Of a DNA stretch of 64,000 bases, positions 1,903 through 30,771 are shown piece after piece (position 1 is the first letter of the stretch; each line of letters begins with the position of its first letter). The notes under the pieces are model-generated. The model worked only from the letters and a program-made list of their open reading frames with translations. It was not told the origin of the DNA and did no database searches. Source of the DNA: a virus (lineage: Duplodnaviria > Caudoviricetes); the IMG/VR virus record IMGVR_UViG_3300037067_013742, positions 32,001 to 96,000 of that record; one strand, 5' to 3'. Made by a program: the position numbers and the translations under genes.

Positions 1903-1959
1903 TTAATCCCTTTCTTCTGAGGCTTTGAAAGAGTAGATAGGTTTCACCGTTAGTTCTAT
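1903..1959 (-). pseudogene. rtcB: C-terminal stub of RNA ligase RtcB
   Basis: Translates IELTVKPIYSFKASEERD*, matching the bacterial RtcB C-terminus (KPIYNFKASE type). Confidence 0.55.
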
Positions 1960-2732
1960 ATTATGTGTCTAAGTCTATGCAGTCTGTTTTTAATACTTGA
2001 TTCTGTTCTATTGAGAGTAGCCGCCACATAGTTTATGGGGTAGTTAAGAACAAGATTATCTTGTTCAATAGTCCAGGCCTTTTGAGTAACTTTCTTCATA
2101 GACGAGGGTCGTTCCCATAGTCGAACTTCTTCTGCAAGCTTTTTCTTTCTAAGAATAAAAAGGCTTGCTTCTGAGTAAAGGATCTTAGCAATAGCTTGGG
2201 CTTTTTCTCTAAAGATACAAATATTATATATGTTGTCACGTTCGTTTCTGTGAATTTCAGGTTTCCGATCTGTAGTTTCTTCACAGAAGCTGAGGTAATA
2301 TTCTTTAATACTTTCGCTAGAGGTTGTTAGTGAGATAAAGGGAAGATTCTTAGAAGTTATGCCTAACGATCCGTCTCCATCAACGAGCCCTCTAATATAA
2401 TCGATAGTGACTAACTCATTTGGGGCTGGGGCAATAACATTCTTCTTACTACCATATGGAATCCAGGGCTCTATTACTTTCCTAAAATCCTTGGAACATA
2501 CAGAGAGTATCGAGGAGGTCACTTCTTTTAGGAAGTTTGTATCTCTAGTTCGTTTTCTGATAGACGCTCTGACTTTGTAATCAGCCTCTATGAAATCCTT
2601 TAATTTGTATAAGATTTCTTCGTCTTGTTCAGAGAGTTCTAAAGCAATCCTCCCCTTATGACCAGACCTACCAGACATATGTCCGTCTGAGGTAAGTAAG
2701 CCAATTAGGTACGAGAGTTCTGGTGATTCCAT
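1956..2732 (-). CDS. free-standing double-motif LAGLIDADG homing endonuclease
   Basis: Motifs YLIGLLTSDG and YIRGLVDGDG; C-terminal Myb/HTH-like tail (WT..QD..LNRTESSIKNRL). Confidence 0.9.
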   Translation of the reverse strand: MESPELSYLIGLLTSDGHMSGRSGHKGRIALELSEQDEEILYKLKDFIEADYKVRASIRKRTRDTNFLKEVTSSILSVCSKDFRKVIEPWIPYGSKKNVIAPAPNELVTIDYIRGLVDGDGSLGITSKNLPFISLTTSSESIKEYYLSFCEETTDRKPEIHRNERDNIYNICIFREKAQAIAKILYSEASLFILRKKKLAEEVRLWERPSSMKKVTQKAWTIEQDNLVLNYPINYVAATLNRTESSIKNRLHRLRHII

Positions 2733-2752
2733 AAGTGGTATTATACCACTTT
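2733..2752 (-). promoter_or_regulatory. extended -10 promoter of a leaderless gene, inside an 8-bp hairpin
   Basis: Minus strand AAGTGGTA-TAA-TACCACTT-ATG = TGgTATAAT + 7 nt + ATG, no Shine-Dalgarno. Confidence 0.65.
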
Positions 2753-2766
2753 ATTGAACCTCCAGC

Positions 2767-2799
2767 TCATGATGAGTATTTTCCAGTGTATTCAAGCAT
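2767..2799 (-). pseudogene. rtcB: N-terminal stub of RNA ligase RtcB
   Basis: Purine-rich leader then MLEYTGKYSS*, resembling the RtcB start (MLEIxGKYxxA); pairs with the C-terminal stub across the HEG. Confidence 0.5.
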
Positions 2800-2853
2800 T
2801 AATGTTCTCTCTTTTGAAAATCGCGGACTATTTATCCCCGAACGGCTAATACT

Positions 2854-3207
2854 TCAATCATTTGGTAGGAAGTACATCCATTGACCATTTGGAAGTACAC
2901 ATTCACAGCTGTCGGTTACACGTAGGCATCGTCGTACAGACTCTGGAATACAGGGAAGATGCATTTCTGCGGCGTCACGATCGCATCTTCTCTCCATTTC
3001 GGCCCGGGAGGCTGCTCTCCAGGCCTTTTGTTGAGCGCAGTCCTTAGGGGTCACATAGACGATACCGGCCAGACATAGAATAAGCCCTAACAAGGTAATA
3101 ATATGGCGAATGTGCTCGCCATCTTTGATCCAGGCTAATACACGTAAGCGCCAAGTAATTGGTGGTGGGGGCGTCGGAAATTGAGGGGTACGATAGGGGT
3201 CTACCAT
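2854..3207 (-). CDS. single-pass membrane protein with Cys-rich C-terminus
   Basis: N-terminal DPYRTP, hydrophobic helix IITLLGLILCLAGIVYV, several Cys. Confidence 0.65.
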   Translation of the reverse strand: MVDPYRTPQFPTPPPPITWRLRVLAWIKDGEHIRHIITLLGLILCLAGIVYVTPKDCAQQKAWRAASRAEMERRCDRDAAEMHLPCIPESVRRCLRVTDSCECVLPNGQWMYFLPND

Positions 3208-3240
3208 TTCTTTCTCCTTAATTTTCGCGGAGTTGTTTAC

Positions 3241-3516
3241 CTAGCTTCTTCTTAGTCCGGGCATAAGCTCTTCTCCCTTTTGGATAAGAGCTCGAATTAC
3301 TTCAACTGGAGTGCCTTCCCAATGACTGTCGGGTGGATCCTCTAGAATCTTCCCGTCGGAGGTTAGGTAGGTTGTTGCAACAAGGACGTATTCTCCCACG
3401 TCCATATTTGGGTTTGCGGATAGATCCTCTTCGTCGATGGGCTCATAGTAGTTTGCATAGATTTCATCACTACACCACCAGAGAGTCCATCCATGACCAA
3501 GGTCTTGGTGTCTCAT
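3241..3516 (-). CDS. hypothetical protein
   Basis: Start moved to MRHQDLG, which follows GGAGGG and avoids the upstream overlap. Confidence 0.55.
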   Translation of the reverse strand: MRHQDLGHGWTLWWCSDEIYANYYEPIDEEDLSANPNMDVGEYVLVATTYLTSDGKILEDPPDSHWEGTPVEVIRALIQKGEELMPGLRRS

Positions 3517-3542
3517 CCCTCCGCTCTTCTTATAGCGACCAG

Positions 3543-3923
3543 TTAGGTTACTCTTTCTAGTAGTGTTATTTCTGTACAGAAGACCGTTCCCTCTGGCCAA
3601 CCAGATTCAAGGCCGATAGGGGCTTTGCGCTTTGGATCCCAGCAATCTTCTATTGCATAGTCTAAATCTATAAAGTAGCGGCACTTAGCTACGAACTTAG
3701 CTCTAGATATCTTTGCTTCTGCACGATAGATAACTTTAGGAGCGTAGTCTCTTACGAACTGTCTTGCATCTTCAAGAGTTCTATATGCGGTTAGAAGAGT
3801 TCCTTTAACTTTGGGTTTTGTTGGGATACCGATCTGGTATCTCACTGCAACATTTGCTGGCAAAAGTCCATAGGATGAAATTAGCCGTTTGTTACGCCTA
3901 CGAACTACTTTATATACTTTCAT
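3543..3923 (-). CDS. hypothetical protein, paralog of 588..968
   Basis: Shared motifs with 588..968. Confidence 0.75.
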   Translation of the reverse strand: MKVYKVVRRRNKRLISSYGLLPANVAVRYQIGIPTKPKVKGTLLTAYRTLEDARQFVRDYAPKVIYRAEAKISRAKFVAKCRYFIDLDYAIEDCWDPKRKAPIGLESGWPEGTVFCTEITLLERVT

Positions 3924-4170
3924 CAGATTCTTCCCAATCTAGTTTAGTTTTAGACCCAGGAAATAGTCTTGAGTATTCATCCTCAGCAGTATCCATATGA
4001 TTGAGAGGATGATCATCATCCCATTCTCCAATGTCAGCAGTAGAGACATACTGTACATCTGGAGCAATACAGTGATTTGGATATCGGGTATTTTCTATCG
4101 CGTCGATAATACCGTCTCTTCCAATCCCATCGAAGTCAATTATTAGGAGTTCTACTTTGTAGGCTTTCAA
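3910..4170 (-). CDS. hypothetical phage protein
   Basis: GGAGG RBS, acidic, tiled with neighbours. Confidence 0.65.
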   Translation of the reverse strand: MKAYKVELLIIDFDGIGRDGIIDAIENTRYPNHCIAPDVQYVSTADIGEWDDDHPLNHMDTAEDEYSRLFPGSKTKLDWEESDESI

Positions 4171-4363
4171 TAGTGTCCTCCATTATCTTGATCTCTTTCC
4201 ATAGACGGCCACCACATCCATGTTCAAGTAGCTTTAGAACTACTGCTTCCGCTGTTTGAAAGGATAGGGGGCCATACATTATTTCTGTAGTTCCCTGGTA
4301 GGTCGAGCCATTGTCAAAAGACTTTGCAAAAACCGTGTATGTCTTCTCTTTAGTTTCTGTCAT
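4136..4363 (-). CDS. hypothetical protein
   Basis: ORF in the minus-strand tiling. Confidence 0.5.
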   Translation of the reverse strand: MTETKEKTYTVFAKSFDNGSTYQGTTEIMYGPLSFQTAEAVVLKLLEHGCGGRLWKEIKIMEDTIESLQSRTPNN

Positions 4364-4551
4364 TATTCTTACCTAGAACTTGAGAGGTCTAAGAGTCCAG
4401 TTACCATCTTCTAGTCTAACTAGTCTTACTCTCTCTTCTCCTAGAGAGAATGAGATCTTCCAGATAGTCTTGTCTTTTTCCGTGCGGGAGAGAGCCTCCT
4501 GCAGGGTTTCTACATTGATAATTCCAGTCTCTTCTGATCTTAGTTGAATCA

Positions 4552-4917
4552 TTACATTCTCCTAAGCTGAGATTCCCAAGCTTCACGAATAGCACTCCAG
4601 TCATCTACATAGACCTTATAGTAGAGCTGTTCATGAGGACGACAATCTACGATATCTACGACCGTAGCCTCTCTCTCTTCGAAGTCTTCCTGCTCATCTG
4701 GCTTATAGAGAACTCTATCCCCTCGCTTAAACTCGGGGGTCTCTAGATCTTCTAGGTTAGCTTCAGCGGCAAACCGTTCATGACGATCACCAACAAGCCT
4801 AACGGCATAGTTTGGCGAGACCCAATCCATAATGGTGCAGTAAACAGTCCCTTTACTAGAAATGATACTAGGGTGCTTATAGATAGCAAAGCTTCCATTT
4901 TCGCGGAGCTTGGTCAC
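4552..4917 (-). CDS. hypothetical protein with SH3/KOW-like barrels
   Basis: FKRGDRVLY...ATVVDI...YYKVYVD...WESQL pattern. Confidence 0.55.
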   Translation of the reverse strand: MTKLRENGSFAIYKHPSIISSKGTVYCTIMDWVSPNYAVRLVGDRHERFAAEANLEDLETPEFKRGDRVLYKPDEQEDFEEREATVVDIVDCRPHEQLYYKVYVDDWSAIREAWESQLRRM

Positions 4918-5011
4918 TGTATCCCCCTTCAGAGAATGTCTTTGCTTATAGAAGAAAAGCTAGGTCTGTTACAGGTTTACTTCGTTCTACTAGTCCTTTT
5001 GGGGTGAGCAA

Positions 5012-5428
5012 TCACATCATCCCTACGGCTAGTAGGATTATCCCAATAAGTAGGGTAGGTCCTCCGAGGCCAAGGGTTAGTCCGTTTCTCCAGCTCCATA
5101 TAGATGTATCTACAGATGGATCGTGAGGACCAGAATTGAGGTATTCCCAGGGGGTAATAACAAAGCAGGTAAGTGTGGAGCTAAGACCGAATCCAGTTAG
5201 AACTGCTCCCGCGATGGCTAGTCTTCGGCTTCTAACTCTTTCTCTGACAGGCCTATTCTCTAGCGGCGGGCGAACATTTCTCTGAGAAGTGGCAGGACTC
5301 CACGATCTGACTTCTATTTGTCGCGGCGAATCACTATTCCCAACACTTTCGTTATCTCTATTCTGTAGAGACTCTGCTAGTGCTGGGGAGCTAATTGTAA
5401 GTAGCATCAAGATTATTACAGTTCTCAT
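5012..5428 (-). CDS. secreted/membrane protein
   Basis: AGGAG RBS, signal peptide ending ALA, two Gly-rich hydrophobic C-terminal helices. Confidence 0.7.
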   Translation of the reverse strand: MRTVIILMLLTISSPALAESLQNRDNESVGNSDSPRQIEVRSWSPATSQRNVRPPLENRPVRERVRSRRLAIAGAVLTGFGLSSTLTCFVITPWEYLNSGPHDPSVDTSIWSWRNGLTLGLGGPTLLIGIILLAVGMM

Positions 5429-5477
5429 CTTTACTCTCCTCCTATATCTTCTAATAAGAATTCTTTTGGTCGGGGAG

Positions 5478-6116
5478 CTATATCCTCGGCGTCAGCGAGA
5501 GCATTCGCGTGAGCCGTGTGTTAGCGCGCTCGAGCGCGGCGTCCCACGCGGCGGCCCACGCGGCGTCCATCGCGGCGTCCCTCGCGGCGTCCATCGCGGC
5601 GTCCCACGCGGCGTCCATCGCGGCGTCCCACGCGGCGGCCCTCGCGGCGTCCCTCGCGGCGTCCCACGCGGCGTCCATCGTGGCGGCCCTCGCGGCGTCC
5701 CACGCGGCGTCCCACGTGGCGACCCTCGCGGCGTCCCTGATGGACTCGTCTCCGGTGCGGAGGAATCGCACGACGACCTCGGGCGGATCGGGCCACAGGG
5801 GCAGCACGTCGAGCGCGCAAAGCCTAGCGAAGTGACGCAGCGTGGCCTCTGCGTCCACCGCCCATAGCACGGTGCGCTCCGAGCAGACGATCTTATCGTC
5901 GCCCCGCACGATCTCGCCGCCGCACTCGACGCGGCAGGCGATGTTGCCCTGAGCGTAGGAAAGCGCGTCGATGGCGCGGACTGAGGCGTGGAGGCCGCTG
6001 AAGCACATCTTCAGCTTGCCTTCGTGTCGGATCGTTTCGCCGATGGTGACCACCAGGCGGCCCTTGTTGGTGAGGATGCGGTCGCCATCCTTGATGCAGA
6101 AATGCCAAGCTCTCAT
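5478..6116 (-). CDS. phage protein with (W/R/M)DAA tetrapeptide repeats
   Basis: CFSGLHAS motif and C-terminal DAAW/DAAR/DAAM repeats; GC-rich. Confidence 0.8.
   Translation of the reverse strand: MRAWHFCIKDGDRILTNKGRLVVTIGETIRHEGKLKMCFSGLHASVRAIDALSYAQGNIACRVECGGEIVRGDDKIVCSERTVLWAVDAEATLRHFARLCALDVLPLWPDPPEVVVRFLRTGDESIRDAARVATWDAAWDAARAATMDAAWDAARDAARAAAWDAAMDAAWDAAMDAARDAAMDAAWAAAWDAALERANTRLTRMLSLTPRI
5535..5737. repeat. 12-bp coding tandem repeat (CGCGGCGTCCCA and variants), about 17 units
   Basis: Directly visible; encodes the xDAA repeats. Confidence 0.9.
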
Positions 6117-6213
6117 CTACTTCTCTCCTGTCTCTGCTATGTTTTTATTTGTGGGGTAGTTACTGCAACAAGCCATAGGCTTTATTTAATGTTCTTATAG
6201 ATAATAAGAAAAA

Positions 6214-8667: not shown

Positions 8668-8676
8668 CTCAATCTC

Positions 8677-9686: not shown

Positions 9687-9866
9687 TTACGCCCAATCCT
9701 CGAAGTCGATGGCTGAGTAACCCTTGGTCTCGAGCCGCTTCCCCGCCTCCTCCCAGATATCCTCAATCTCACGATCGGACATCTGTTCTGCCATTATCTC
9801 ACGACAGCGAGCACACTCTGCCATGATGACATCATCCTTCGATCCACAGATGTGACACTTAGCCAT
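9687..9866 (-). CDS. small zinc-finger protein (not in ORF track)
   Basis: AGGAG RBS; MAKCHICG...ECARC...DFEDWA*, 59 aa. Confidence 0.6.
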   Translation of the reverse strand: MAKCHICGSKDDVIMAECARCREIMAEQMSDREIEDIWEEAGKRLETKGYSAIDFEDWA

Positions 9867-9868
9867 CG

Positions 9869-9969
9869 TTATCTCCTATAAGAGTAGATGCCCTTCTTCC
9901 AGCTCTTGAGGACCTCTTCGGCATCTTCTGCCCGGCGGAAGTAATCCGACTCCTATATTATGGACCACA
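9869..9969 (-). pseudogene. displaced 3' end of a CGPYSRES-motif gene
   Basis: CGP* then, after a 1-nt shift, ESDYFRRAEDAEEVLKSWKKGIYSYRR*, aligning with the C-terminus of 10654..10875. Confidence 0.65.
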
Positions 9970-9988
9970 TTTGTGATACTCTCTATTT

Positions 9989-10657
9989 ATGGATACTAAA
10001 GTTTGCATATCTTGTGGTCAAGATCTTCCCTTGACGGAGTACTGGTTTCAGAATAAAAGTTTAGGGAAACTTTGGGCTTCTTGTCGAAAGTGTGCTTCTT
10101 ACCATCGTGTCTATGGAGTATATCCGAATGGAGATCGGATTATTAAACCCCTTTACAAAACCTGTCGAGCTTGTGGTCTGACCTTCCCTCTAAATGCCGA
10201 ACATTTTCCCATTAATATGACGAGGGTTGATCGATATGGCCATCCGCTTGTGGTTTATCGCTCTCTTTGTAAAACGTGTCGCGCTCGTGGTCGTCGCAAG
10301 TCGAATGTTGAAGAGAGACATATGAATGCCTGGGCTCTTTTACAGAATAAGATTAGGGCTATGAAGGAATTAAGTCCTGATCTCGCTTGTTGTCGTTGTG
10401 GTTTCCAGGGCCACCCAAGTGCCTTTGATTTTCATCATCTTGACCCGGTGAAGAAGGAATCTGCGATTGCGCGACTTCTTCGTCAAAGGAGATTCCTTAC
10501 AGAGAAACAATGGACTCGAGTTCTTGCGGAATTGTTAGGATGCGTTCTTCTTTGTAGAAATTGTCACTCTGTAATTCACTGTTCTGTGCTTGAGGATGGT
10601 TCGCCAAATCCTGATTATGTCCATACCACGAAAGGGCCATTGGTCCAGTATCCCTAG
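9989..10657 (+). CDS. HNH homing endonuclease with tandem zinc ribbons
   Basis: CxxC pairs, FDFHHLDP..K, CVLLCRNCHSVIH. Confidence 0.88.
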   Translation: MDTKVCISCGQDLPLTEYWFQNKSLGKLWASCRKCASYHRVYGVYPNGDRIIKPLYKTCRACGLTFPLNAEHFPINMTRVDRYGHPLVVYRSLCKTCRARGRRKSNVEERHMNAWALLQNKIRAMKELSPDLACCRCGFQGHPSAFDFHHLDPVKKESAIARLLRQRRFLTEKQWTRVLAELLGCVLLCRNCHSVIHCSVLEDGSPNPDYVHTTKGPLVQYP

Positions 10658-10875
10658 CGAGCAGCCCACTTTCCAGAATCAAGAGCCTCTTGTGCCTCTT
10701 CCTCAGTTTTCCAGTATCGTAGGGACTCCCTTGAGTAAGGACCACAGTGATCACACCAGGTTCCGATGTAGTATCCGGCGGCAGACTGACACACCCGGAA
10801 GGGAAGGTCTTTGTCGCACTCGTCACAGTGAGCCATTGTCTTTTCCAGAGAGAGCATTGTTTCGCCGCGAAGCAT
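10654..10875 (-). CDS. small phage protein (SAAGYYIG...CGPYSRES motif)
   Basis: GGAGG RBS before 10875; CxxC pairs. Confidence 0.7.
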   Translation of the reverse strand: MLRGETMLSLEKTMAHCDECDKDLPFRVCQSAAGYYIGTWCDHCGPYSRESLRYWKTEEEAQEALDSGKWAAR

Positions 10876-10877
10876 CT

Positions 10878-11090
10878 CTACCTCCAAGCGTCGGAATCTG
10901 TTCTTACCCACAGGGCAATACCGTGCTCATCTACGTTACCCTCGAACCGCCTGATCGTGTGGGTGTCATCTACAAGAGACCTGAGAAGAACTTCAGCCGT
11001 TGTCTCTCCCCGCTCGTAGGCTAGAGTCTCATAGCCCCAGATGTTGAAGAGGAAGCGTGCGTCTTCTTCGGTTGGCGGCGAATACAACAT
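10878..11090 (-). CDS. hypothetical protein
   Basis: Tiled ORF with GGAGG upstream. Confidence 0.55.
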   Translation of the reverse strand: MLYSPPTEEDARFLFNIWGYETLAYERGETTAEVLLRSLVDDTHTIRRFEGNVDEHGIALWVRTDSDAWR

Positions 11091-11495: not shown

Positions 11496-11547
11496 TGGTG
11501 CTGGCGACCAGATTTGAACTGGTAAGGGTTTCCCCATAAGTTCCTAG
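11496..11547 (-). pseudogene. 3' half of a split tRNA-Leu gene
   Basis: TAGGA-ACTTA, long variable arm, ACCAG-TTCAAAT-CTGGT, CGCCAGC-ACCA. Confidence 0.8.
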
Positions 11548-11561
11548 GTCTGTCTTCGATA

Positions 11562-11649
11562 TGGTGCCGCAGCCCGGATTCGAACCGGGACGGGATTACT
11601 CCCATGAGCTTCTAAGGCTCACATGTCTCGCCAGTTCCATCACTGCGGC
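11562..11649 (-). tRNA. tRNA-Leu(TAG)
   Basis: GCCGCAG/CTGCGGC acceptor, TGAGC-CTTAGAA-GCTCA anticodon arm, long variable arm, TTCGAAT loop, encoded ACCA. Confidence 0.93.
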
Positions 11650-12133
11650 GTTTGTTTCTAGCTCCCCACGTCTCGGTTTGCTGATGGCAATTTGGACAGA
11701 GGAGTCTAAGGTTTTCTAATCTGTGGTCAGTATGAATGCCGTTCTTATGATCTACGTGGAGTCTTATCTTGTTACCTAACCAGGAATCAATCCCGCATAT
11801 CTCACAGCGTAGCATCCTGCCGATTTGGACTAGTCGTTTTAGTAGTCTCGATGGTTGATAGGAAGAGTTCTCTGAGAAGACCTCTTCATCTGGGACTGTG
11901 TTCTTTCTTACTGTTTGTCGGACGATCTCGGAGGTTTTCGCAGTCTTTCCCTTTGCCCAACCCTGACCTGTAAAGTGTTCGGTTGGTATTAGTAGGTTTC
12001 TGATCTTGCCATTTATATATCGGTAGTTTCCGCCGGTCCTTTTTAGACCAAGAGTATCTAGGACTTGTCCGATGGATGTGCAGTTTATTACTACTGGAGC
12101 TAGCACCTCGTGGGTATACTTGGATTGTCTCAT
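11612..12133 (-). CDS. HNH homing endonuclease
   Basis: CEICG..WLG..LHVDHKNG..DHRLENLRLLCPNCHQQT; its stop codon is the tRNA anticodon TAG. Confidence 0.92.
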   Translation of the reverse strand: MRQSKYTHEVLAPVVINCTSIGQVLDTLGLKRTGGNYRYINGKIRNLLIPTEHFTGQGWAKGKTAKTSEIVRQTVRKNTVPDEEVFSENSSYQPSRLLKRLVQIGRMLRCEICGIDSWLGNKIRLHVDHKNGIHTDHRLENLRLLCPNCHQQTETWGARNKRRSDGTGETCEP

Positions 12134-12163
12134 TCACTGATTATAGCATACACGCTTCGCTCC

Positions 12164-12199
12164 CTGAACTTACGTGTATGCCAATTCCACCACGCCAGC
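12164..12199 (-). pseudogene. 5' half of a split tRNA-Leu gene
   Basis: GCTGGCG-TG-GTGGAATTGGCATACAC-G-TAAGT; acceptor and anticodon strands complement the half at 11496..11547. Confidence 0.8.
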
Positions 12200-21663: not shown

Positions 21664-22023
21664 TTAGAGGGCCTTCCTGCACTTCTCAAATGGGCATCCA
21701 CCATTACAGTGCTTGTCGTAGAGAGCCCAGTCGATCTGTGGCAAGAAGTCTTCTGTGAGGAGGTAGTCGAAGAACTCTGGGCCGAGGTTGTCCACCATCA
21801 CCTCTATAATTTTGTGGGGTAGGTGGTCTTGGAGGATATCTCCTTCGTGCATGTCGGTGAAGTGAGCTTGGATGACGACTGGCTTGACGTGGTTTTCCCA
21901 GGTGCAGGTTGGGGCGCAACGAATGGGGGTGAGGTTTACCTCCACGATGTCTCCGCGAGGGTTCTTTCCCAACCGGCGAGACCATGTCCCCCAATAGGAG
22001 GAGAAGAAGTACGTGTTTTTCAT
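21664..22023 (-). CDS. hypothetical phage protein
   Basis: MKNTYFFSSYWGTWSR start; the longer ORF-track version shadows the upstream gene. Confidence 0.65.
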   Translation of the reverse strand: MKNTYFFSSYWGTWSRRLGKNPRGDIVEVNLTPIRCAPTCTWENHVKPVVIQAHFTDMHEGDILQDHLPHKIIEVMVDNLGPEFFDYLLTEDFLPQIDWALYDKHCNGGCPFEKCRKAL

Positions 22024-22040
22024 GGAGGATTTAGAAGAAA

Positions 22041-23603
22041 CTAGATGCGGACGAGCGAGGCCAGCATGGCGTTTAGGCTTGTCCATCCCTCGATGTAGGG
22101 CGCGGGGGTGAGGCTGATGGGCGCGTACCCGGTGGTCTTGACCACGCCCTGGCAGAGAACCTCGATGGTCCTCTTCGGCAGGACCGGGACCTCCTGGCTG
22201 TCGGAGGTGGTGACGAGGGCGGAGGGGCAGCGGGCCAGGGGGCCGACGAACCACTCCAGGTAGGAGGTGCGGGGCTTGAAGGACCCCTGGAACTCGCTGA
22301 TGGACATCCCCAGGACCCTGGCGTGCAGCTCGATCGCCACACCCTCTCCCATGCCGTCGCAGGCGGGGCAGGTCATCCCGTTGGGGAGGGTTCCCTGGCT
22401 GTCGCAGTAGGGGCACAGGACCTTCTCCTCCACGCTCTCCGTGGCCAGGAAGTCACCCTGCATCGCGGAGTGCTCCCAGATGTCTCCCTCGGCGGAGGGG
22501 GCCTTGGGGTAGGTACCGATGGCCTTGACCTTTAGGGAGCGGTGGATGTTCTGGGCCAACCACTCGGTCAGCTTGCTGGCGAAGGTCTTGGCCCTCTGCT
22601 CGTCCTTGGAGTCACCCACCACGTAGGTGAGCTTGCCCAGGCGCGAGGACCAGTCGACCTCGGGGGAGTGGATTCCCGCGGCCCTGATGGTGGCGGCGTT
22701 GAGGGCCAGGACGTACCGGGCGTAGTCCAGACCGAAGTGGCGGTACCCCTCGGGCAGGGCGGTGATGGTCTCCGAGAGTCCGTCCCGGGCCTTCATGTGG
22801 GTGTACCACCGACCCGTGTTGTGGGCGATAGCGACGGCGGACAGGTACCCGGCCTCACCGATAAGCTTGACGAGGTTCTGGACGCTCTTGGCCGTCTGGA
22901 TGCGGGAGAGCAGCTCGTCCAGGCAGACGTCCCTGAGCTCCGAGACGCGCTCCAGGTGGAGGCGGTTGGGCTCGTAGGACATCTCGGCCTTGCGACCGGC
23001 CAGCTCGTCCTCCTCGGTGAGGGGGAGGGAGCGGGCGATGTTGGCGCTGGCGGAGAACTGGGCGTCCCACCAGTCACCGTCCATCTCGGCCCCGAAGACC
23101 ACGCTCTCGTCGTCGTCGTCCCCGGAGGTGGGGGCGTCCATGAGGGCGCAGTCGTCGTACAGGCACAACTCGGCGGCACCTTGTCCCGGGGCGAGGTCGA
23201 CGGTCGGGTCCAGCCTGTCTCCGGCGCCGGGGCACCAGCCGAAGGTCTTCCGGTCGGCGTGGAAGGTCAGGGTCTCGATCACCACCTGGATGATCTCCCT
23301 GCACCGGATGGTCTCGGCCAGGACGTGGATGTCCTTGGCGTTGAGGTTCACCGAGAGCATGCTGTAGGCCTCCAGGGCGAGGTCGTGGGCCTTGAAGGTC
23401 GACACGGCCTCCATCTCCTGGATCGAGGTGAGGGTGCCGCGCAACCAGGCGTTGAGGAGCGGGAAGGTGTTGGGGACGGGGGCGAGCTCGATCTCGGGGA
23501 TGAACTCGTTGTCCTCGGAGCACAGCGTGTCGAGGTAGTTCTCGAACTGCTCGTCGGTGGCGAAGGTGTCGTTGACGTTCATGGTGGAGGTGTTGGTCGT
23601 CAT
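22041..23603 (-). CDS. large GC-rich acidic protein with DnaJ-type zinc finger
   Basis: AGAAAGG RBS before MTTNTSTM; CPYCDSQG...CPACDGMG; nearly all third positions G/C. Confidence 0.8.
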   Translation of the reverse strand: MTTNTSTMNVNDTFATDEQFENYLDTLCSEDNEFIPEIELAPVPNTFPLLNAWLRGTLTSIQEMEAVSTFKAHDLALEAYSMLSVNLNAKDIHVLAETIRCREIIQVVIETLTFHADRKTFGWCPGAGDRLDPTVDLAPGQGAAELCLYDDCALMDAPTSGDDDDESVVFGAEMDGDWWDAQFSASANIARSLPLTEEDELAGRKAEMSYEPNRLHLERVSELRDVCLDELLSRIQTAKSVQNLVKLIGEAGYLSAVAIAHNTGRWYTHMKARDGLSETITALPEGYRHFGLDYARYVLALNAATIRAAGIHSPEVDWSSRLGKLTYVVGDSKDEQRAKTFASKLTEWLAQNIHRSLKVKAIGTYPKAPSAEGDIWEHSAMQGDFLATESVEEKVLCPYCDSQGTLPNGMTCPACDGMGEGVAIELHARVLGMSISEFQGSFKPRTSYLEWFVGPLARCPSALVTTSDSQEVPVLPKRTIEVLCQGVVKTTGYAPISLTPAPYIEGWTSLNAMLASLVRI

Positions 23604-24443: not shown

Positions 24444-24453
24444 CTGATCAGAA

Positions 24454-24788: not shown

Positions 24789-24795
24789 CCAAGAA

Positions 24796-25209
24796 CTAGT
24801 CGCAGCTCTGACTGCAGTTCCAGGTTGTCGCCGGCTTCCCGGACGTTGCGCTGATCACATGGGAGAACTGCCAAAAGCCGTAGCCACAGGCATTGTGGTG
24901 GCAACGATCTTGGATCTGGAGAGCCCGGTCCTTGCTGATATGACCCTCAGTGCAGAACTGAACGTCGCGACCACTGTCGTCTACCCAGACCCCGTCCTCG
25001 AGCTTCCTCCAGTTTCCCGTGTCCTCGATCGCCAAGCTCTGCTGCTTCGGGTTCTTCAGCGCGGCCAACACCTCCTCAGGGCTATTTCCCGATGAGTAGA
25101 CCATCTTGTAAAACTTCGTGCTTGTCATGCCAGCAACCATAGCAATCGCTTCCGCACAGATCTCCTTGTTCGACCTTGCCATATCAAACCTCATTTGCCA
25201 GATGCTCAT
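24796..25209 (-). CDS. hypothetical protein; C-terminal domain paralogous to 26778..26999
   Basis: VWxDxSGRxVxFCxxGHI...GYGFxxFSH...SGKPATTWxCSxxCD; true start may be MARSNK. Confidence 0.75.
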   Translation of the reverse strand: MSIWQMRFDMARSNKEICAEAIAMVAGMTSTKFYKMVYSSGNSPEEVLAALKNPKQQSLAIEDTGNWRKLEDGVWVDDSGRDVQFCTEGHISKDRALQIQDRCHHNACGYGFWQFSHVISATSGKPATTWNCSQSCD

Positions 25210-25271
25210 CAGTGCAGGACTACTGGCTATACCTGCAGACTCCCTATGAGAGGGAGTTTCGCTTAAGGGGT

Positions 25272-26296: not shown

Positions 26297-26428
26297 ATAA
26301 GACCATCCTTTCTAGGGGATTGGCTACCCCATAATCTACCTTGAGCGCCCGACACACTTCTATGTCAGGCCCTGCGGTAGCCCTCTTTTTGTCCTTAGAC
26401 AGGGCGAGGAGTTAGTTCCCTGAGAGAT

Positions 26429-26635
26429 CTAGTGGTTGGGGTACATGAACGAGGAGACGATGGCCCCGTAGGCGAGGGACTTGCCCTCCTCCCACGGAGC
26501 CGACTCCTCGATCTTGAGAACGAACTTGTCGCTGTTGCCGCCGCACATCTCAACGATCTCGCCGAGAAGACCGACATCCAGGAGATCGGCATTGAGGAGG
26601 GAGAGCGAACCGTGGATCGAGTTGTACTTGGTCAT
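26429..26635 (-). CDS. hypothetical protein
   Basis: GAAAGG RBS, GC-rich codons. Confidence 0.65.
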   Translation of the reverse strand: MTKYNSIHGSLSLLNADLLDVGLLGEIVEMCGGNSDKFVLKIEESAPWEEGKSLAYGAIVSSFMYPNH

Positions 26636-26738
26636 GTTAGACCCTTTCTTTCGGGGGACTGGTTACCCCATCAGATACCTCTACTTTGGCCTACTATAGG
26701 CTGGGGCCTAGGTTTTCGCACCCCATTATCCGTAGCTT

Positions 26739-26764
26739 GAGCAGTTTAATGTCTTGCTCAGGAC
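26739..26764 (-). ncRNA. small H-type pseudoknot motif, copy 4
   Basis: GTC-CT-GAGCA-A-GAC-ATTAAAC-TGCTC, 13 nt after a stop codon. Confidence 0.65.
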
Positions 26765-26777
26765 GTTGGGGACGCTA

Positions 26778-26999
26778 TCAGTCGCAGTTGGCGCTGCAGC
26801 ACCAGGTGGTCGCCGGCTTTCCGGACTTGTTGCTTGCCGTGTGGGAGAACTCGTAGAAGCCGTAACCGAACGCGCTGTAGTGGCAGTTATCCTGAACCTG
26901 CCTTGCCTCCTCCTCGGTAATGTGGCCCAGAACACAGAACCTCACGTTACGTCCGCTGGTGTCGATCCAGACCTTCTCGCCGATTTGATTCCATGCCAT
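26778..26999 (-). CDS. hypothetical protein, stand-alone paralog of the 24796 domain
   Basis: GAGG RBS before MAWNQIG; shared motifs. Confidence 0.75.
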   Translation of the reverse strand: MAWNQIGEKVWIDTSGRNVRFCVLGHITEEEARQVQDNCHYSAFGYGFYEFSHTASNKSGKPATTWCCSANCD

Positions 27000-27721
27000 G
27001 ATAAGACCTCTTCTTCTACGTAGAGCAGTACTACTACGGCACCATGCCATAGCAGCACATACCCTGTCCGTTGGGCCTGCCTGCGGGTATCGCGCCCACC
27101 TACCCCTAAGGGTGATCACTATGATCAGGCAGACTGATGTAGTACAGCATACTGTATAGGCCCCTGCTGTAGGGGGCACATGTAGGACTATAGTAGTACT
27201 AGTGTACACATAGACATACACTCATGTACTACCTGATGCATGGATAGATGTACTACCCATGTAAGCCTGCTTAGTGCAGGTACAGCATGACTACATGATT
27301 TAGGGATTATGTCCTATGCATATATGTACGCAGATGTAGCATATGGCACATGTACATGTAGCTGCTGTGATGCTGGTCATTCAACTTGTGCTTGTTGTAC
27401 TACTACTAGTAGTTAAACATAAGCGCATCCAACACTATAACTAAGGTAGTTATAGGCGAGATCATAGCTCATAGTACTGTTTCATTTATGCGCGCATCCC
27501 TTTCGACATCACGCATAAAGGCTTAGTACTAGTATTGCTTAGATCCAGTAGCGCATGTTCAGGTAGCTACTAGACTCAGATAAGCCAGTTTCTTATCTGA
27601 CAAGCACTCCAGACTGTTATTCACAAGTCTGGTGGTTAACCGCAACCAGAGCTACCGGAGATCAACCCGGGGGCTCCGAACGTGGCAACCATCCTGAGGA
27701 AAATCCCCAAGATACACGTCC

Positions 27722-27839
27722 AGGTACACAGAAATATTTAAGTTTAGGTTTGGTTTTTGGATTGGGCTTTTTTAAGGTACACAGAAATATTCCATTTTAG
27801 GATCTGAATCCCTATCGACTTTAGGTACACAGAAATATT
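27722..27839. repeat. three exact 17-bp direct repeats AGGTACACAGAAATATT
   Basis: At 27722, 27775 and 27823. Confidence 0.9.
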
Positions 27840-27905
27840 TGGTTTGGGGGAAATTTTCTATTTTTGGATTGGGATTAGTATTGGGAAGATTTGTGATATA
27901 AAGCT

Positions 27906-28508
27906 TTGAGGAGGGTCTTGATGGATAGTGTTCCCGTATATGCTTTTGGTAGTAGTGAACCAGTTACTCGTATTGAGACGGGAAGAGAGTGTGCTCTAAT
28001 AGATAAGTCTTATAGTAAGTTATCTCTTATAGAGAGATTGTGGTGGGCGGTTTCTGGGCGCCGGCCGAAAATAAAAAATCCTTTTGTTCCGGCAGTGACC
28101 TATAAGTTCTATAGTGGGTGTGACTATACTTTCTACCTTATCGAACATCTTCCAAAGGTTTGTGGTGAAGATCCTTCTCCGGAGTCTTACTTAGAAGCCG
28201 TTAGGGGGAAGACTGCAATTCCATTCATTTCTGGAATTAGTTTTTCTTTTAATAAGGGGAAGGGGGTTGTTGAAGGAACCATCCTCTCAATCTTGTCTAC
28301 CGAGTCTCTTACTTATCGGCTTGTAAAGGAGGGGGATTGGGATTTCGTTGGGAAGGTAGCTGATGAATATGGTGGTCTGTCTATAATGGTACTTCCTAAT
28401 TTTAGGATTAATCAGACTTCTTGGGGCATGGGCATTGATGATCTTGTTACAGAAGAGAATTTTACTTTCTCTGCTTCAGAGCCGGGCTTCCTGAAGAAGA
28501 TTCGATAA
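27906..28508 (+). CDS. divergent tail-tube-family paralog
   Basis: YSGCD, ISGIS, ADEYG, WGMGIDDLVTE align with 56850..57539 (FSGCD, IQAIS, ANEYG, WGISIDDLVSE). Confidence 0.7.
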   Translation: MRRVLMDSVPVYAFGSSEPVTRIETGRECALIDKSYSKLSLIERLWWAVSGRRPKIKNPFVPAVTYKFYSGCDYTFYLIEHLPKVCGEDPSPESYLEAVRGKTAIPFISGISFSFNKGKGVVEGTILSILSTESLTYRLVKEGDWDFVGKVADEYGGLSIMVLPNFRINQTSWGMGIDDLVTEENFTFSASEPGFLKKIR

Positions 28509-28535
28509 TTTTTCCCGCCGAAAAAAGATTTCCTA

Positions 28536-28563
28536 TTGACAACTAGGGTAGCTGAATTAAATT
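28536..28563 (+). promoter_or_regulatory. sigma70-type promoter for Hsp20
   Basis: TTGACA-16 nt-TAAATT followed by AGGAGG. Confidence 0.5.
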
Positions 28564-28595
28564 TTTCTCCAGAAAAAAGGAGGAGGTTAAAGGAT

Positions 28596-28934
28596 ATGTT
28601 TACTCTACTAGATCAACTACTAGACTATGAAGACTTTATGAGATTAGGGATGAAGAGGGCTAACTTCTCAGCTGAAGAGAGATGGGAGTTTAATAAAGAT
28701 GGAGATACTGGGGTACTAGAGATAGATCTTCCAGGAGTTAAGAAAGAGGATGTATCTCTGGAGGTGGGTGATGGCCGGCTAGAAATAAAATGGAAGAAGA
28801 AGGGGATTAATCGTAGTCGGTCATTTAAGCTCTCTCCCGAGTATGGTGAGGAAGTTACCGCCAAGATGGAAGATGGAATTCTGGAGATCAGGATGGCCTA
28901 TAGCTCTAAGAGAAAGAAGATAGAGATCGTGTGA
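28596..28934 (+). CDS. Hsp20/alpha-crystallin small heat-shock protein
   Basis: EIDLPGVKKEDV, RSFKL, AKMEDGILEI, KKIEI; ATG start after RBS. Confidence 0.9.
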   Translation: MFTLLDQLLDYEDFMRLGMKRANFSAEERWEFNKDGDTGVLEIDLPGVKKEDVSLEVGDGRLEIKWKKKGINRSRSFKLSPEYGEEVTAKMEDGILEIRMAYSSKRKKIEIV

Positions 28935-28980
28935 TATGCTGTCCCCGTAAGAGACAGATGTTCTGTCTCGGTGAGGGACA

Positions 28981-29145
28981 ATGCCAGAAATCCTGCCCGA
29001 AGCTCTTTGTTTTGATGATATCTTTCTAGTACCTAGACATTCAGACATTTCTTCTAGAGATGAGGTTGACCTTTCGGTCTCTCTTCCGAAGGGTGTTGCC
29101 CTTGGTCTCCCTATTATCTCTGCTCCTATGACTTGGTCGTTATAA
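28981..29145 (+). pseudogene. truncated 5' end of the resident IMPDH/GMP reductase gene (not in ORF track)
   Basis: GAGGG RBS; MPEILPEALCFDDIFLVPRHSDISSRDEVDLS...LPIISAPM then TWSL*. Confidence 0.85.
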
Positions 29146-29169
29146 TTGGGAGTGTGATATGTTCTTCTT

Positions 29170-30771
29170 ATGATTTTAAGAGAATACAGAAAGAAAAGAC
29201 CTAATAATGTACGTATAGATCGCTTTGCTTATGTTCAATGTGACGAATGTGGTAAAGAGTATGAAATCTTGATTTCCAATAGGAAAGCTTCACAGAAAAA
29301 GAAGCTTGGTACTTGTCATGAAGGGTTGGACTATTGCAAGCCTTGTGCTTTTAAGAAAATAGCAGCACCAAAACTTAAGGAGATACAAAAGACTCCTTCT
29401 TGGAAGGAAAAGCAGCATTTGTCACATAAAGGCCAACGTCAGTACCAATGGCGTTTAGATTATAAAGCAGGAAAAGCCTCCACCCCAAGAGGTTATATAC
29501 AAGTTCAAGACGGAAATGGTCGGCTTAGGCCAGAACACGCAATAATAGTTGAGAAGTTGATGGGAAGACTTTTGACTAAAGAGGAACGCATTCATCATAT
29601 CAACCTTGATAAAAGTGACAACAGAGTAGAGAATCTTTGGTGTTGCGTAGACCAAAAGCAACACATGTTGCTTCATGCTCAATTATACGAGATTGCGAAG
29701 GAGCTAATACAAGCAGGAGTAGTTGTATTTAAAGATGGTGTTTATAGCTTAAACACTAGCGGAACCGGTTCTATCTCGTTTGATGATTTTCTCCTTGTAC
29801 CACAGTTTAATGTTGTGAACAGTAGATTAGATACTGATTTAACTACTCGTCTTACCAAGACGAGATTTATAGATCATCCAATTTGTTCCACTAATATGTC
29901 TACTATTACGGAGCTAGAAATGATGAAAGCAATGGACCAATCTGGAAGTGTCGGCTTTCTTCACCGATTTATGTCAATCGAGAAACAGCTAGAGATTATA
30001 TATAAGGCAAAAGAACTTGGGATTCGCTATATTGTTCCATCTCTTGGGGTGAAAGAGCATGACTTTAATAATCTTTCGCTTTTCAATAAAGCTGGGATAG
30101 AAATTATTCTAATTGACGTGGCACATGCTCATTCGACAATGGCTTGTAGACTATTGGAGTATTCTAAAGAACACTTTCCAAATATTGAGGTCATTATTGG
30201 CAATATTTGCACTTCGATTGCCTGCCATGATTTTTGTAGACTTGGTGCAGGTGCTATTAGAGTGGGGATTGGAGGTGGTTCTCAGTGTCTTACTCGCTCA
30301 AATACAGGGCATGGCGTTTCAACTCTACAGTCTATAATTGACTGCTACTCAGTTTCGCGCCATTTTAACGTTCCTCTAATTGCAGACGGTGGTTTTCGAA
30401 ATAGTGGCGATATTGTGAAAGCGTTGGGATTTGGAGCCGAGGCGGTTTCTCTTGGCTGGTTATTATCTGCCTCTTCTGATACTCCTGGTGAGGTTATTAA
30501 TATTAATGGTTCTTTGTTTAAACAGTTTTACGGAATGGCTTCTAAAGAAGCACAGGTGCAATATCTAGGAAAGAGCCGAGAAGATATTTGTCCAGAAGGA
30601 AAGAGTGAGTTGATTATATATCGTGGAGATACTAAAAAAATTCTAGGTGATTTAGTAGGTGGGATAAGAAGTGGTCTTACCTATTCAGGTGCTAGAACGT
30701 TACGGGAATTTCGTGAAAAGGTAAAGGCTCGAAAGATTACTGATCAATCGAAGAGAGAAAGTAAGCTTTAA
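29170..30771 (+). CDS. HNH endonuclease fused to a complete IMP dehydrogenase/GMP reductase domain
   Basis: EH..IVE..MGRLL...E.IHHINLDKSDNRVENL; then FDDFLLVP, IDVAHAHS, GIGGGSQCLTR, IADGG, FYGMAS, GGIRSGLTYSG; no CBS pair. Confidence 0.9.
   Translation: MILREYRKKRPNNVRIDRFAYVQCDECGKEYEILISNRKASQKKKLGTCHEGLDYCKPCAFKKIAAPKLKEIQKTPSWKEKQHLSHKGQRQYQWRLDYKAGKASTPRGYIQVQDGNGRLRPEHAIIVEKLMGRLLTKEERIHHINLDKSDNRVENLWCCVDQKQHMLLHAQLYEIAKELIQAGVVVFKDGVYSLNTSGTGSISFDDFLLVPQFNVVNSRLDTDLTTRLTKTRFIDHPICSTNMSTITELEMMKAMDQSGSVGFLHRFMSIEKQLEIIYKAKELGIRYIVPSLGVKEHDFNNLSLFNKAGIEIILIDVAHAHSTMACRLLEYSKEHFPNIEVIIGNICTSIACHDFCRLGAGAIRVGIGGGSQCLTRSNTGHGVSTLQSIIDCYSVSRHFNVPLIADGGFRNSGDIVKALGFGAEAVSLGWLLSASSDTPGEVININGSLFKQFYGMASKEAQVQYLGKSREDICPEGKSELIIYRGDTKKILGDLVGGIRSGLTYSGARTLREFREKVKARKITDQSKRESKL

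What the first reader, a model, noticed from the sequence alone, without database searches (positions are those of the whole stretch)
1903..30771. Recurrent 'cut-and-replace' homing endonuclease cassettes that carry a diverged copy of the gene they break
Seen: four HEGs sit at breakpoints in resident genes whose stubs are still readable. In three cases a diverged intact equivalent lies next to or is fused with the nuclease: tRNA-Leu (11.5-12.2 kb), IMPDH/GMPR (29.0-30.8 kb) and the CGPYSRES gene (9.9-10.9 kb). In the fourth (rtcB, 1.9-2.8 kb) the gene body is simply gone. None shows intron or intein splicing features. Known: free-standing phage HEGs spread by intronless homing, and variant target alleles resist cleavage. 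Inference: these are splicing-free selfish elements that avoid the cost of insertion by supplying a cleavage-resistant replacement, applied here to both an RNA gene and protein genes in one genome.
Basis: partly seen in the sequence, partly recalled or inferred. Interest (0 to 1): 0.88.

Follow-up and report, generated by a model that had tools for sequence, protein, structure and literature searches.

The report
Homing nucleases that overwrite phage genes
In a 229-kb phage, three selfish nuclease genes each sit beside a leftover piece of a native gene (a tRNA-Leu, a GMP-reductase-like gene, a small zinc-ribbon gene) and a complete but very different copy of it, a footprint of nuclease-driven gene replacement known from fungal mitochondria but rarely seen in phages.

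Summary
(1) A tRNA-Leu(UAG) is cut in its anticodon loop. Its two halves flank a 619-nt insert made of an HNH gene plus a different, complete tRNA-Leu(UAG). (2) A 54-codon GMP-reductase/IMPDH N-terminal stub precedes an in-frame HNH-GMPR fusion ORF, and stub and fusion belong to different subtypes of the family. (3) An HNH gene separates an intact 'CGPYSRES' gene from a displaced, diverged 3' end. (4) A LAGLIDADG gene sits between short rtcB-like end remnants; its closest relatives lie in a group I intron of rtcB in Bacillus phages. No intron ribozyme or intein domain was found at any site.

No nuclease-free relative of this phage was found. However, the tRNA-linked HNH family lies in tRNA clusters in 9 of 11 other phage lineages checked. 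In Felix-O1-like phages the homologous HNH is flanked by an 11-nt stub of one tRNA-Leu(UAG) allele and a complete foreign allele, and a nuclease-free sister phage carries the stub allele intact.

Best reading: double-strand-break repair copied the nuclease gene plus the neighbouring donor allele. This is a phage counterpart of fungal mitochondrial 'mobile ORF plus duplicated C-terminus' hybrids. Cleavage resistance of the replacement copies is untested. Other first-stage notes on this genome describe the same sites.

The parts
12168..12199 (-). 5' half of the resident tRNA-Leu(UAG): acceptor 5' strand, D arm, 5' strand of the anticodon stem
   Evidence: Joined to 11548-11496 it is called tRNA-Leu(tag), 85 nt; sequence
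12134..12167 (-). 34-nt leader of the insert, with TG-C-TATAAT just upstream of the HNH start codon
   Evidence: Read from the sequence. The paralog at genome 10217-10951 has TGTGCTATACT at the same place. The simple promoter scan did not list it
11612..12133 (-). HNH homing endonuclease gene (173 aa); its last 38 nt overlap the 5' part of the complete tRNA-Leu and its stop codon is the tRNA's anticodon
   Evidence: Pfam HNH E 7e-5; phrog_10822 E 3e-46; homologs sit in phage tRNA clusters
11562..11649 (-). complete tRNA-Leu(UAG), the 'replacement' copy
   Evidence: ARAGORN; Rfam tRNA 51.3 bits; 69% identical to the joined halves
11496..11548 (-). 3' half of the resident tRNA-Leu(UAG): anticodon loop (CCTAGGA), 3' strand of the anticodon stem, long variable arm, T arm, acceptor 3' strand, CCA
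10654..10911 (-). intact small zinc-ribbon gene of the 'CGPYSRES' family, with a rare variant C-terminus (ESLRYWKT...)
   Evidence: 38 metagenomic relatives; alignment
9989..10657 (+). HNH endonuclease gene (222 aa), convergent with the intact gene and overlapping it by 4 nt
   Evidence: phrog_2255 E 1.6e-25; distant relatives in T5-like tRNA clusters
9869..9977 (-). displaced native 3' end of a CGPYSRES-family gene (..H-K-CGP, frameshift and stop, then ESDYFRRAEDAEEVLKSWKKG..); it still holds the AGGAG ahead of the next gene (ATG at 9866)
   Evidence: DNA collinearity; family alignment; shuffle p = 0.011; sequence
28981..29145 (+). N-terminal stub (54 codons) of a GMP-reductase/IMPDH-family gene; it ends right after the invariant Met of the PI.S..M|DTVTE motif, then TWSL and a stop
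   Evidence: Pfam IMPDH positions 1-43, E 1e-7; NCBIfam; motif table
29170..30771 (+). one ORF of 533 codons: HNH_3 endonuclease (about aa 1-198) fused in frame to a complete CBS-less GMPR/IMPDH-family enzyme (aa 202-532); no start codon lies ahead of the enzyme part
   Evidence: Pfam; PHROGs; NCBIfam below every equivalog cut-off; DNA around 29650-29800
1956..2732 (-). LAGLIDADG endonuclease gene (258 aa, two LAGLIDADG motifs plus a C-terminal HTH-like part)
   Evidence: Pfam LAGLIDADG_3 E 6e-12; phrog_4645; 44% identical over its full length to the ORF inside the rtcB group I intron of Bacillus phages
2701..2799 (-). rtcB-like N-terminal remnants: MLEYTGKYSS-stop, then in the same frame AGGSIKWYNTTYGITRTLVPN
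   Evidence: local tblastn E 0.86; weak
1903..1968 (-). rtcB-like extreme C-terminal remnant (..ELTVKPIYSFKASEERD-stop), with no start codon
   Evidence: best local tblastn match, E 0.07, to the last 10 residues of Goe17 RtcB

Best explanation
These are footprints of nuclease-driven gene replacement. A free-standing homing endonuclease gene (HEG) lives next to a gene whose other alleles it cuts at a highly conserved stretch. When it meets a phage with too little flanking homology, the break is repaired by copying the HEG together with the neighbouring donor allele. At least one junction forms without homology, right at the break. The result is a displaced fragment of the native gene, the HEG, and a complete foreign copy that keeps the function.

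- tRNA-Leu site: both junctions are non-homologous, so both halves of the native tRNA remain.
- GMPR site: the upstream junction is at the break, so an N-terminal stub remains and the rest of the native gene is gone.
- CGPYSRES site: the downstream junction is at the break, so a 3' stub remains.
- rtcB site: a different outcome. The HEG family is intron-borne elsewhere, and here it has outlived its host gene.

Shown: the anatomy; the intact nuclease domains; the absence of ribozyme and intein signals; the foreignness of the intact copies; and the recurrent HNH to tRNA-Leu(UAG) linkage, including a nuclease-free sister phage that carries the stub allele. Inferred: that each nuclease cuts at the break, that the replacement copies resist cutting, and the repair pathway.
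For: - Geometry. The complete tRNA is nested between two halves that pair perfectly. Stubs abut the HEGs at all sites.
- Breaks fall in the most conserved stretches, as HEG targets usually do. They fall directly after the Met that is invariant in 115/115 relatives of PI.S..M|DTVTE, inside CGPYSRES, the best-conserved block of that family, and in the tRNA anticodon loop.
- The intact copies are of another lineage. The GMPR stub is nearer the 'PM' subtype (0.45 against 0.36 mean identity). The fusion is nearer the 'NM' subtype (0.49 against 0.38), and its 20 nearest relatives are 'NM' in both the N- and C-terminal thirds. The tRNA copies are 69% identical. The CGPYSRES stub has the common C-terminus and the intact gene a rare variant.
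- Linkage of this HNH family to tRNA genes. A 33%-identical paralog at genome 10217-10951 also runs into a downstream tRNA-Leu. Relatives abut tRNA-Leu(UAG) in Atu_ph07, phiPsa347 and mistaenkt, and lie among tRNA genes in 9 of 11 lineages checked.
- Sister system. The HNH is present in about 10 of 254 Felix-O1-like records. In those checked it lies between an 11-nt stub of tRNA-Leu(UAG) allele B and a complete allele A (44/79 identical). Nuclease-free SUSP1, with flanks 97.2% and 99.7% identical to mistaenkt, has allele B intact.
- No intron or intein signals were found.
- Precedents. One-sided, illegitimate break repair in T4 intron homing (review PMC2988022, citing Parker et al. 1999). Fungal mitochondrial hybrids made of a mobile endonuclease ORF plus a foreign duplicated C-terminus, with the native C-terminus left downstream (PMC3630166, citing Paquin et al. 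1994).
Against: - No nuclease-free relative of this phage was found, so none of the three stubs is shown to be continuous with an intact native allele here.
- No cleavage data exist for any of the four nucleases.
- The GMPR-linked HNH matches only positions 11-165 of its 221-position PHROG profile and is fused to the enzyme, so it may be a decaying nuclease.
- No other HNH-GMPR pair or fusion was found. The nearest relative of the intact CGPYSRES variant has no HEG beside it.
- Allele A of the Felix-O1-like tRNA also occurs without the HEG, in Sf17, so the linkage is not absolute.
- The break positions differ between systems: tRNA position 11/12 there, the anticodon loop here.
Confidence: 0.68

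Rival explanations
1. General phage mosaicism. The stubs are scars of ordinary illegitimate recombination at module borders. The nuclease genes merely sit at such borders or arrived later, and did not make the breaks.
For: Nuclease genes are reported to occupy boundaries of genetic exchange between phages (PMC10448857). No cleavage data exist here. The genome is crowded with selfish elements: 11 LAGLIDADG matches (several inside long intein-like ORFs) and 6 distinct HNH loci, so chance proximity is not negligible.
Against: At three independent sites the nuclease gene lies exactly between the stub and the intact copy, and each break falls in the most conserved block of the gene. The same stub-HNH-foreign tRNA-Leu(UAG) layout recurs in Felix-O1-like phages.
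Confidence: 0.15
2. Tandem paralogs followed by decay. The phage once had two neighbouring diverged copies of each gene. A nuclease gene landed in or beside one copy, which then eroded by deletion.
For: Phage tRNA clusters do hold several tRNA-Leu genes side by side. The stub and the intact copy are deeply diverged, as old paralogs would be.
Against: The complete tRNA lies inside the split one, which tandem copies cannot give. The stubs show no decay in the tRNA stems, and the GMPR stub has no frameshift. SUSP1 and skuden carry a single tRNA-Leu(UAG) at the homologous site.
Confidence: 0.07
3. The interrupted genes still work, through an unrecognised splicing or processing route (divergent intron, split tRNA, or trans-acting halves). 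On this view the 'stubs' are exons or functional halves.
For: The tRNA halves keep every stem pair. The nearest relatives of the LAGLIDADG gene are inside a true group I intron. The genome also holds inteins.
Against: No ribozyme was found at E<=10. The tRNA 'intron' would be almost wholly ORF plus a complete tRNA. The split tRNA has C where the near-universal U33 should be. The GMPR fusion already holds a full enzyme, so an exon 1 would be redundant. There is a stop and a frameshift inside the CGPYSRES stub. No intact rtcB ligase is present.
Confidence: 0.04
4. Assembly artefact: two co-occurring strains with different alleles were stitched into one contig.
For: The record is a metagenome assembly.
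Against: Independent assemblies from other samples, with contig names that point to more than one assembler, give the same junctions at 99.9-100% identity. Stub and intact copies are far too diverged (36% aa, 69% nt) to be confused by an assembler.
Confidence: 0.02

Closest known systems
Fungal mitochondrial mobile endonuclease ORFs (mORFs) that create hybrid genes: Allomyces macrogynus atp6; Glomus atp6, atp9, cox2, nad3 (PMC3630166; Paquin et al. 1994 as cited there)
   Same: An endonuclease ORF is inserted together with a foreign, diverged copy of the gene part downstream of the insertion point. The native part is left behind as an untranslated duplicate. The ORF is often in phase with the host gene, as in the HNH-GMPR fusion. 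The native part matches nuclease-free relatives, as seen here for the Felix-O1-like tRNA.
   Different: Those are organelle genomes with LAGLIDADG or GIY-YIG ORFs, and only C-terminal parts are carried. Here the host is a phage and the nucleases are HNH. The carried pieces are a whole tRNA, a whole enzyme gene downstream of the nuclease, and a 3' end.
Intronless homing and marker exclusion by free-standing T4 endonucleases (SegF, SegG, SegE, MobE), with co-conversion of flanking DNA (PMC2988022)
   Same: A free-standing nuclease gene beside its target gene. The break lies in a conserved gene, and the donor's flanking allele is copied along with the nuclease gene.
   Different: In the T-even phages both flanks recombine by homology, so no stubs are left and the alleles are close. 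Here the alleles are deeply diverged and native fragments remain.
[quoted passage not shown]
   Same: It explains junctions formed at the break without homology, and the invasion of ectopic or diverged sites.
   Different: That was a laboratory system with an intron. The natural products described here were not reported there.
T4/T6 SegB, a GIY-YIG homing endonuclease in the tRNA gene cluster (PMC2330249; PMC13096335)
   Same: A homing nuclease embedded among phage tRNA genes that drives inheritance or amplification of neighbouring tRNA genes. A statistical association of the nuclease family with tRNA genes has been published.
   Different: SegB belongs to a different nuclease family (GIY-YIG, not HNH). 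No split tRNA with a nested replacement was reported.
Group I intron with a LAGLIDADG ORF in rtcB of Bacillus Bastillevirinae phages (Goe17, BSP36; found here)
   Same: The LAGLIDADG protein is 42-44% identical over its full length, and the host gene is rtcB.
   Different: There rtcB exons and a ribozyme (Rfam 68 bits) are present. In the window there is no ribozyme, and only about 30 N-terminal and 15 C-terminal rtcB-like codons remain.

Membership tests
Free-standing homing endonuclease genes (intronless homing) | An intact site-specific nuclease domain (HNH, LAGLIDADG, GIY-YIG) | tested here: met
   Pfam and PHROGs hits for all four ORFs. HNH motif residues and two LAGLIDADG motifs can be read in the translations.
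Free-standing homing endonuclease genes (intronless homing) | Not embedded in a self-splicing intron or an intein | tested here: met
   No group I/II intron at E<=10. No Hint/intein domain in these ORFs. Each ORF has its own start codon, and stops separate it from the stub.
Free-standing homing endonuclease genes (intronless homing) | Presence/absence polymorphism at a fixed site among related genomes | tested here: inconclusive
   No relative of this phage was found. The feature is met for the homologous HNH in Felix-O1-like phages: about 10 of 254 records.
Free-standing homing endonuclease genes (intronless homing) | Cleaves the nuclease-free allele but not its own genome's allele | not testable with these tools
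   This needs purified protein and substrates.
mORF-type hybrid genes (endonuclease ORF plus carried-over gene part) | A duplicated gene part: the inserted copy in use, the native copy displaced beside the ORF | tested here: met
   tRNA-Leu, GMPR, CGPYSRES gene.
mORF-type hybrid genes (endonuclease ORF plus carried-over gene part) | The inserted copy is phylogenetically foreign, and the native copy matches nuclease-free relatives | tested here: inconclusive
   Foreignness is supported. A match of the stubs to nuclease-free relatives could be shown only in the Felix-O1-like sister system.
Group I intron-encoded homing endonuclease | A ribozyme core flanking the ORF, inside an otherwise continuous host gene | tested here: not met
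   No Intron_gpI match in the window. The same search finds the intron in Goe17 at 68.3 bits.
Intein with a nested endonuclease | Hint splicing blocks in frame with the exteins | tested here: not met
   Pfam Intein_splicing is absent from the four ORFs, though it is found in other ORFs of the window. Stop codons lie between each stub and its nuclease.
GMP reductase / IMP dehydrogenase (PF00478) | A full-length catalytic TIM-barrel domain | tested here: met
   Pfam positions 2-343 of 345, E 7e-84. The protein scores below every NCBIfam equivalog cut-off, so the exact activity is open.
RtcB RNA ligase (PF01139) | A recognisable RtcB domain | tested here: not met
   No match in the whole genome at E<=10. 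Only short end-like remnants are present.

The most novel reading that the evidence does not exclude
The HNH family of phrog_10822 and a tRNA-Leu(UAG) gene form a self-contained, promoter-bearing mobile cassette that overwrites resident tRNA-Leu(UAG) genes across unrelated phage groups. The swap is kept because the incoming tRNA differs in its anticodon arm and so escapes host tRNA-cutting defences. On this view a selfish nuclease doubles as a delivery vehicle for counter-defence tRNA alleles.
Probability: 0.12. Interest if true: 0.75.

Novelty: new variant of a known kind. Interest (0 to 1): 0.6.

Why it matters
Homing in phages is usually inferred from clean presence/absence patterns. Here the native fragments were left in place, so the break position, the extent of the copied tract and the foreign origin of the new allele can be read directly from one genome.

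The finding shows three things:
- Nuclease-driven replacement acts on an RNA gene as well as on protein genes.
- It can move whole genes between phages that share little homology.
- It can also destroy a gene, as at rtcB.

The link between one HNH family and tRNA-Leu(UAG), seen in at least four unrelated phage groups, gives a testable system in culturable Felix-O1-like coliphages. It parallels the recently published SegB-tRNA association (PMC13096335).

Tried and rejected
- Relatives of this phage were sought with flanking proteins and the capsid protein in IMG/VR and with DNA patterns for the intact or half tRNA. The only find was a 6.7-kb capsid contig at 96.6% identity.
- The single metagenome scan returned one unrelated AT-rich contig. 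Its tRNA-Leu(UAG) shares the stub's anticodon stem and variable arm. This helps to type the stub but is not a relative.
- Exact-protein look-ups found only the same arrangement in other samples. Two look-ups failed because the called start codons differ.
- A phmmer search of the GMPR stub against 1.8 billion representatives gave at best 60% identity. Short hits that looked like similar stubs elsewhere turned out to be a low-coverage contig and a frameshifted bacterial IMPDH.
- A chimera scan of the GMPR fusion found no switch of subtype along the gene.
- Relatives of the GMPR-linked HNH: none by word search, and only distant ones in cultured phages.
- The closest relative of the intact CGPYSRES variant has no nuclease neighbour. 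The family has no match in cultured phages.
- The tRNA alignment did not tie either the stub or the complete copy to the tRNAs beside HNH homologs.
- The promoter scan did not flag the TG-n-TATAAT boxes.
- No structure or complex prediction was run. None would have changed the reading.

Full report
CONTEXT. The window is bases 32001-96000 of a 229-kb virus record rated complete. Its capsid, tail-like and large intein-bearing ORFs mark it as a tailed phage. The genome has 29 tRNA genes, 27 of them in one cluster far from the window. It is crowded with selfish elements: 11 LAGLIDADG matches, several of them inside long intein-like ORFs, and six HNH loci. No cultured phage resembles it at DNA level.

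SITE 1, tRNA-Leu (11.5-12.2 kb, minus strand). One complete tRNA-Leu(UAG) lies at 11649-11562. Upstream, 12199-12168 reads as the acceptor 5' strand, D arm and 5' strand of the anticodon stem of another class II tRNA. Downstream, 11548-11496 supplies an anticodon loop (CCTAGGA), the matching stem strand, a long variable arm, the T arm, the matching acceptor strand and CCA. Joined, the two pieces are called tRNA-Leu(UAG), 85 nt, with every stem pair intact. The only oddity is C where U33 is expected.

The 619 nt between the halves hold three things: a 34-nt leader with TG-C-TATAAT, a 173-codon HNH ORF (Pfam HNH; phrog_10822 E 3e-46), and the complete tRNA. The ORF runs 38 nt into the tRNA and stops on its anticodon, TAG. 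The complete tRNA and the joined halves are 69% identical. An unrelated metagenomic tRNA-Leu(UAG) has the same anticodon stem and variable arm as the stub, which confirms the stub's type.

SITE 2, small zinc-ribbon gene (9.9-10.9 kb). The intact gene (10911-10654, minus strand) ends ..CDHCGPYSRESLRYWKTEEEAQEALDSGKWAAR. A 222-codon HNH gene (phrog_2255 E 2e-25) converges on it from 9989 to 10657. Eleven bases beyond the HNH start codon, on the minus strand, the DNA repeats ATCAC..TGTGGTCC..AGGAGTC in the same order as the intact gene. It then encodes ESDYFRRAEDAEEVLKSWKKG.. up to a stop at 9869.

The family has 38 metagenomic relatives. In their alignment CGPYSRES is the best-conserved block. 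The stub follows the common C-terminal pattern (ES-[DGN]Y[FY]..), while the intact gene carries a rarer, one-residue-longer variant. The stub still provides the AGGAG ahead of the next gene, whose ATG is at 9866. That may explain why the stub has been kept.

SITE 3, GMPR/IMPDH-family gene (29.0-30.8 kb). A 54-codon ORF matches the first 43 positions of Pfam IMPDH (E 1e-7). Twenty-four bases on, a 533-codon ORF combines an HNH_3 nuclease (about aa 1-198) with a complete CBS-less enzyme (profile positions 2-343, E 7e-84). No ATG, GTG or TTG lies in frame ahead of the enzyme part, so it is most likely made as a fusion.

The stub is 36% identical to the fusion's own N-terminus. It breaks off directly after the Met that is invariant in 115 of 115 relatives, within PI.S..M|DTVTE. 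The stub is of the 'PM' subtype, and the fusion is of the 'NM(S)T(I)' subtype. The fusion's nearest relatives are of that subtype in both its N-terminal and C-terminal thirds, so there is no sign that the fusion is a chimera with the native gene. Nothing closer than 51% identity (fusion) or 60% identity (stub) exists in the large protein collections.

SITE 4, rtcB (1.9-2.8 kb). A 258-codon LAGLIDADG ORF (2732-1956, minus strand) is preceded by MLEYTGKYSS-stop and, in the same frame..TTYGITRTLVPN. It is followed by ..VKPIYSFKAS.. and a stop. Its closest relatives, 42-44% identical over the full length, lie in Bacillus Bastillevirinae phages between two rtcB pieces. In Goe17 that gap holds a group I intron (Rfam 68.3 bits).

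Goe17 RtcB begins MIEVQGKYN.., contains TTMTITDKVVPN, and ends ..IKPVYNFKAN. The best local tblastn match in the window region is to those last ten residues, directly downstream of the nuclease gene (E 0.07 in 2.1 kb). The remnants are short. The Pfam RtcB model finds nothing in the genome, and no ribozyme remains. I read this as a nuclease gene that has outlived both its host gene and its intron. It is not a replacement cassette.

SPLICING AND ARTEFACT. No intron family reaches E<=10 near any site. The four ORFs lack intein blocks, although the same Pfam scan finds such blocks in other ORFs of the window. Contigs from other samples carry the same junctions at 99.9-100% identity, so mis-assembly is unlikely.

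THE NUCLEASE FAMILY AT SITE 1 ELSEWHERE. A 33%-identical paralog in this genome's tRNA cluster (genome 10217-10951) has the same layout. It carries a TG-n-TATAcT box, and its ORF runs 51 nt into a downstream tRNA-Leu(GAG). In cultured and uncultured phages the family sits among tRNA genes in 9 of 11 lineages looked at. A tRNA-Leu(UAG) is its immediate neighbour in Agrobacterium phage Atu_ph07, Pseudomonas phage phiPsa347 and Escherichia phage mistaenkt.

In Felix-O1-like phages the gene is present in about 10 of 254 records at one site. Nuclease-bearing mistaenkt and Michonne read: shared upstream DNA, then the first 11 nt of tRNA-Leu(UAG) 'allele B' (GGGAGATTGAC, which also serves as the ribosome-binding site of the HNH gene), then the HNH ORF, then a complete 'allele A'. 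Nuclease-free SUSP1 has flanks 97.2% and 99.7% identical to mistaenkt, and it carries intact allele B, as does skuden. Alleles A and B share 44 of 79 positions.

Allele A also occurs without the nuclease gene, in Sf17, so the linkage can be broken.

MECHANISM. The simplest account is break repair that copies the nuclease gene plus the adjacent donor allele, with one or both junctions formed at the break without homology. One-sided, illegitimate repair of this kind was shown for T4 intron homing (PMC2988022, citing Parker et al. 1999). Co-conversion of flanking alleles is the basis of marker exclusion by free-standing T4 nucleases (PMC2988022).

The products match the hybrid genes of fungal mitochondria in form. 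There, a mobile endonuclease ORF brings a foreign C-terminal gene part and leaves the native one downstream (PMC3630166). A nuclease tied to phage tRNA genes has a precedent in SegB (PMC2330249; PMC13096335).

Three things are new here: the setting (a phage), the cargo (a whole tRNA nested inside the tRNA it replaces, and a whole enzyme gene fused to the nuclease), and three such scars in one genome.

LIMITS. No nuclease-free relative of this phage was found. No cleavage data exist. The GMPR-linked and CGPYSRES-linked nucleases have no independent evidence of linkage to their cargo.

Noticed in passing
window 25196-25264 (-): Rfam Hammerhead_II ribozyme match, 43.2 bits (gathering score 37), E 8e-6, in a GC-rich early-gene region.
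   Followed up: no
G000:C1:10217-10951 (-), outside the window: A paralog (33% identity) of the tRNA-linked HNH lies between tRNA-Leu(CAG) and tRNA-Leu(GAG) in the main tRNA cluster. Its ORF also runs into the downstream tRNA and is preceded by TGTGCTATACT.
   Followed up: partly
G000:C1:10025-11069 and 205081-205153, outside the window: The four tRNA-Leu genes of the cluster are only 75-77 nt long (short variable arm). ARAGORN also calls a tRNA with anticodon UUA, which would read the UAA stop codon.
   Followed up: no
window 38494-41637 and 58714-61074 (+): Two large ORFs each carry an intein splicing domain with a nested LAGLIDADG domain (Pfam).
   Followed up: no
L012 (Bacillus phage Goe17) 1727-4052; L011 (BSP36): rtcB is interrupted after GTLGGG by a group I intron (Rfam 68.3 bits) that carries a LAGLIDADG ORF. 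The records annotate the pieces as separate genes.
   Followed up: partly
L021 (mistaenkt) 688-1231; L028 (Michonne) 439-982; L030 (SUSP1); L031 (skuden); L029 (Sf17): In Felix-O1-like phages the HNH gene sits between an 11-nt stub of tRNA-Leu(UAG) allele B and a complete allele A. The stub doubles as the HNH ribosome-binding site. Two very different tRNA-Leu(UAG) alleles segregate at this one locus.
   Followed up: yes
window 5400-6000 and 22000-23600: Sharp GC-rich islands (0.65-0.73) against a background of 0.40-0.50.
   Followed up: no
window 10654-10911 (-): The 'CGPYSRES' protein belongs to a family of 68-75-aa zinc-ribbon proteins with about 38 metagenomic members. It has no Pfam, PHROG or NCBIfam model and no match in cultured phages.
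   Followed up: partly
L002 (IMGVR_UViG_3300029288_003015): A 6.7-kb contig covering the capsid region is 96.6% identical to the window. A slightly diverged strain therefore exists and might differ at the nuclease sites.
   Followed up: no
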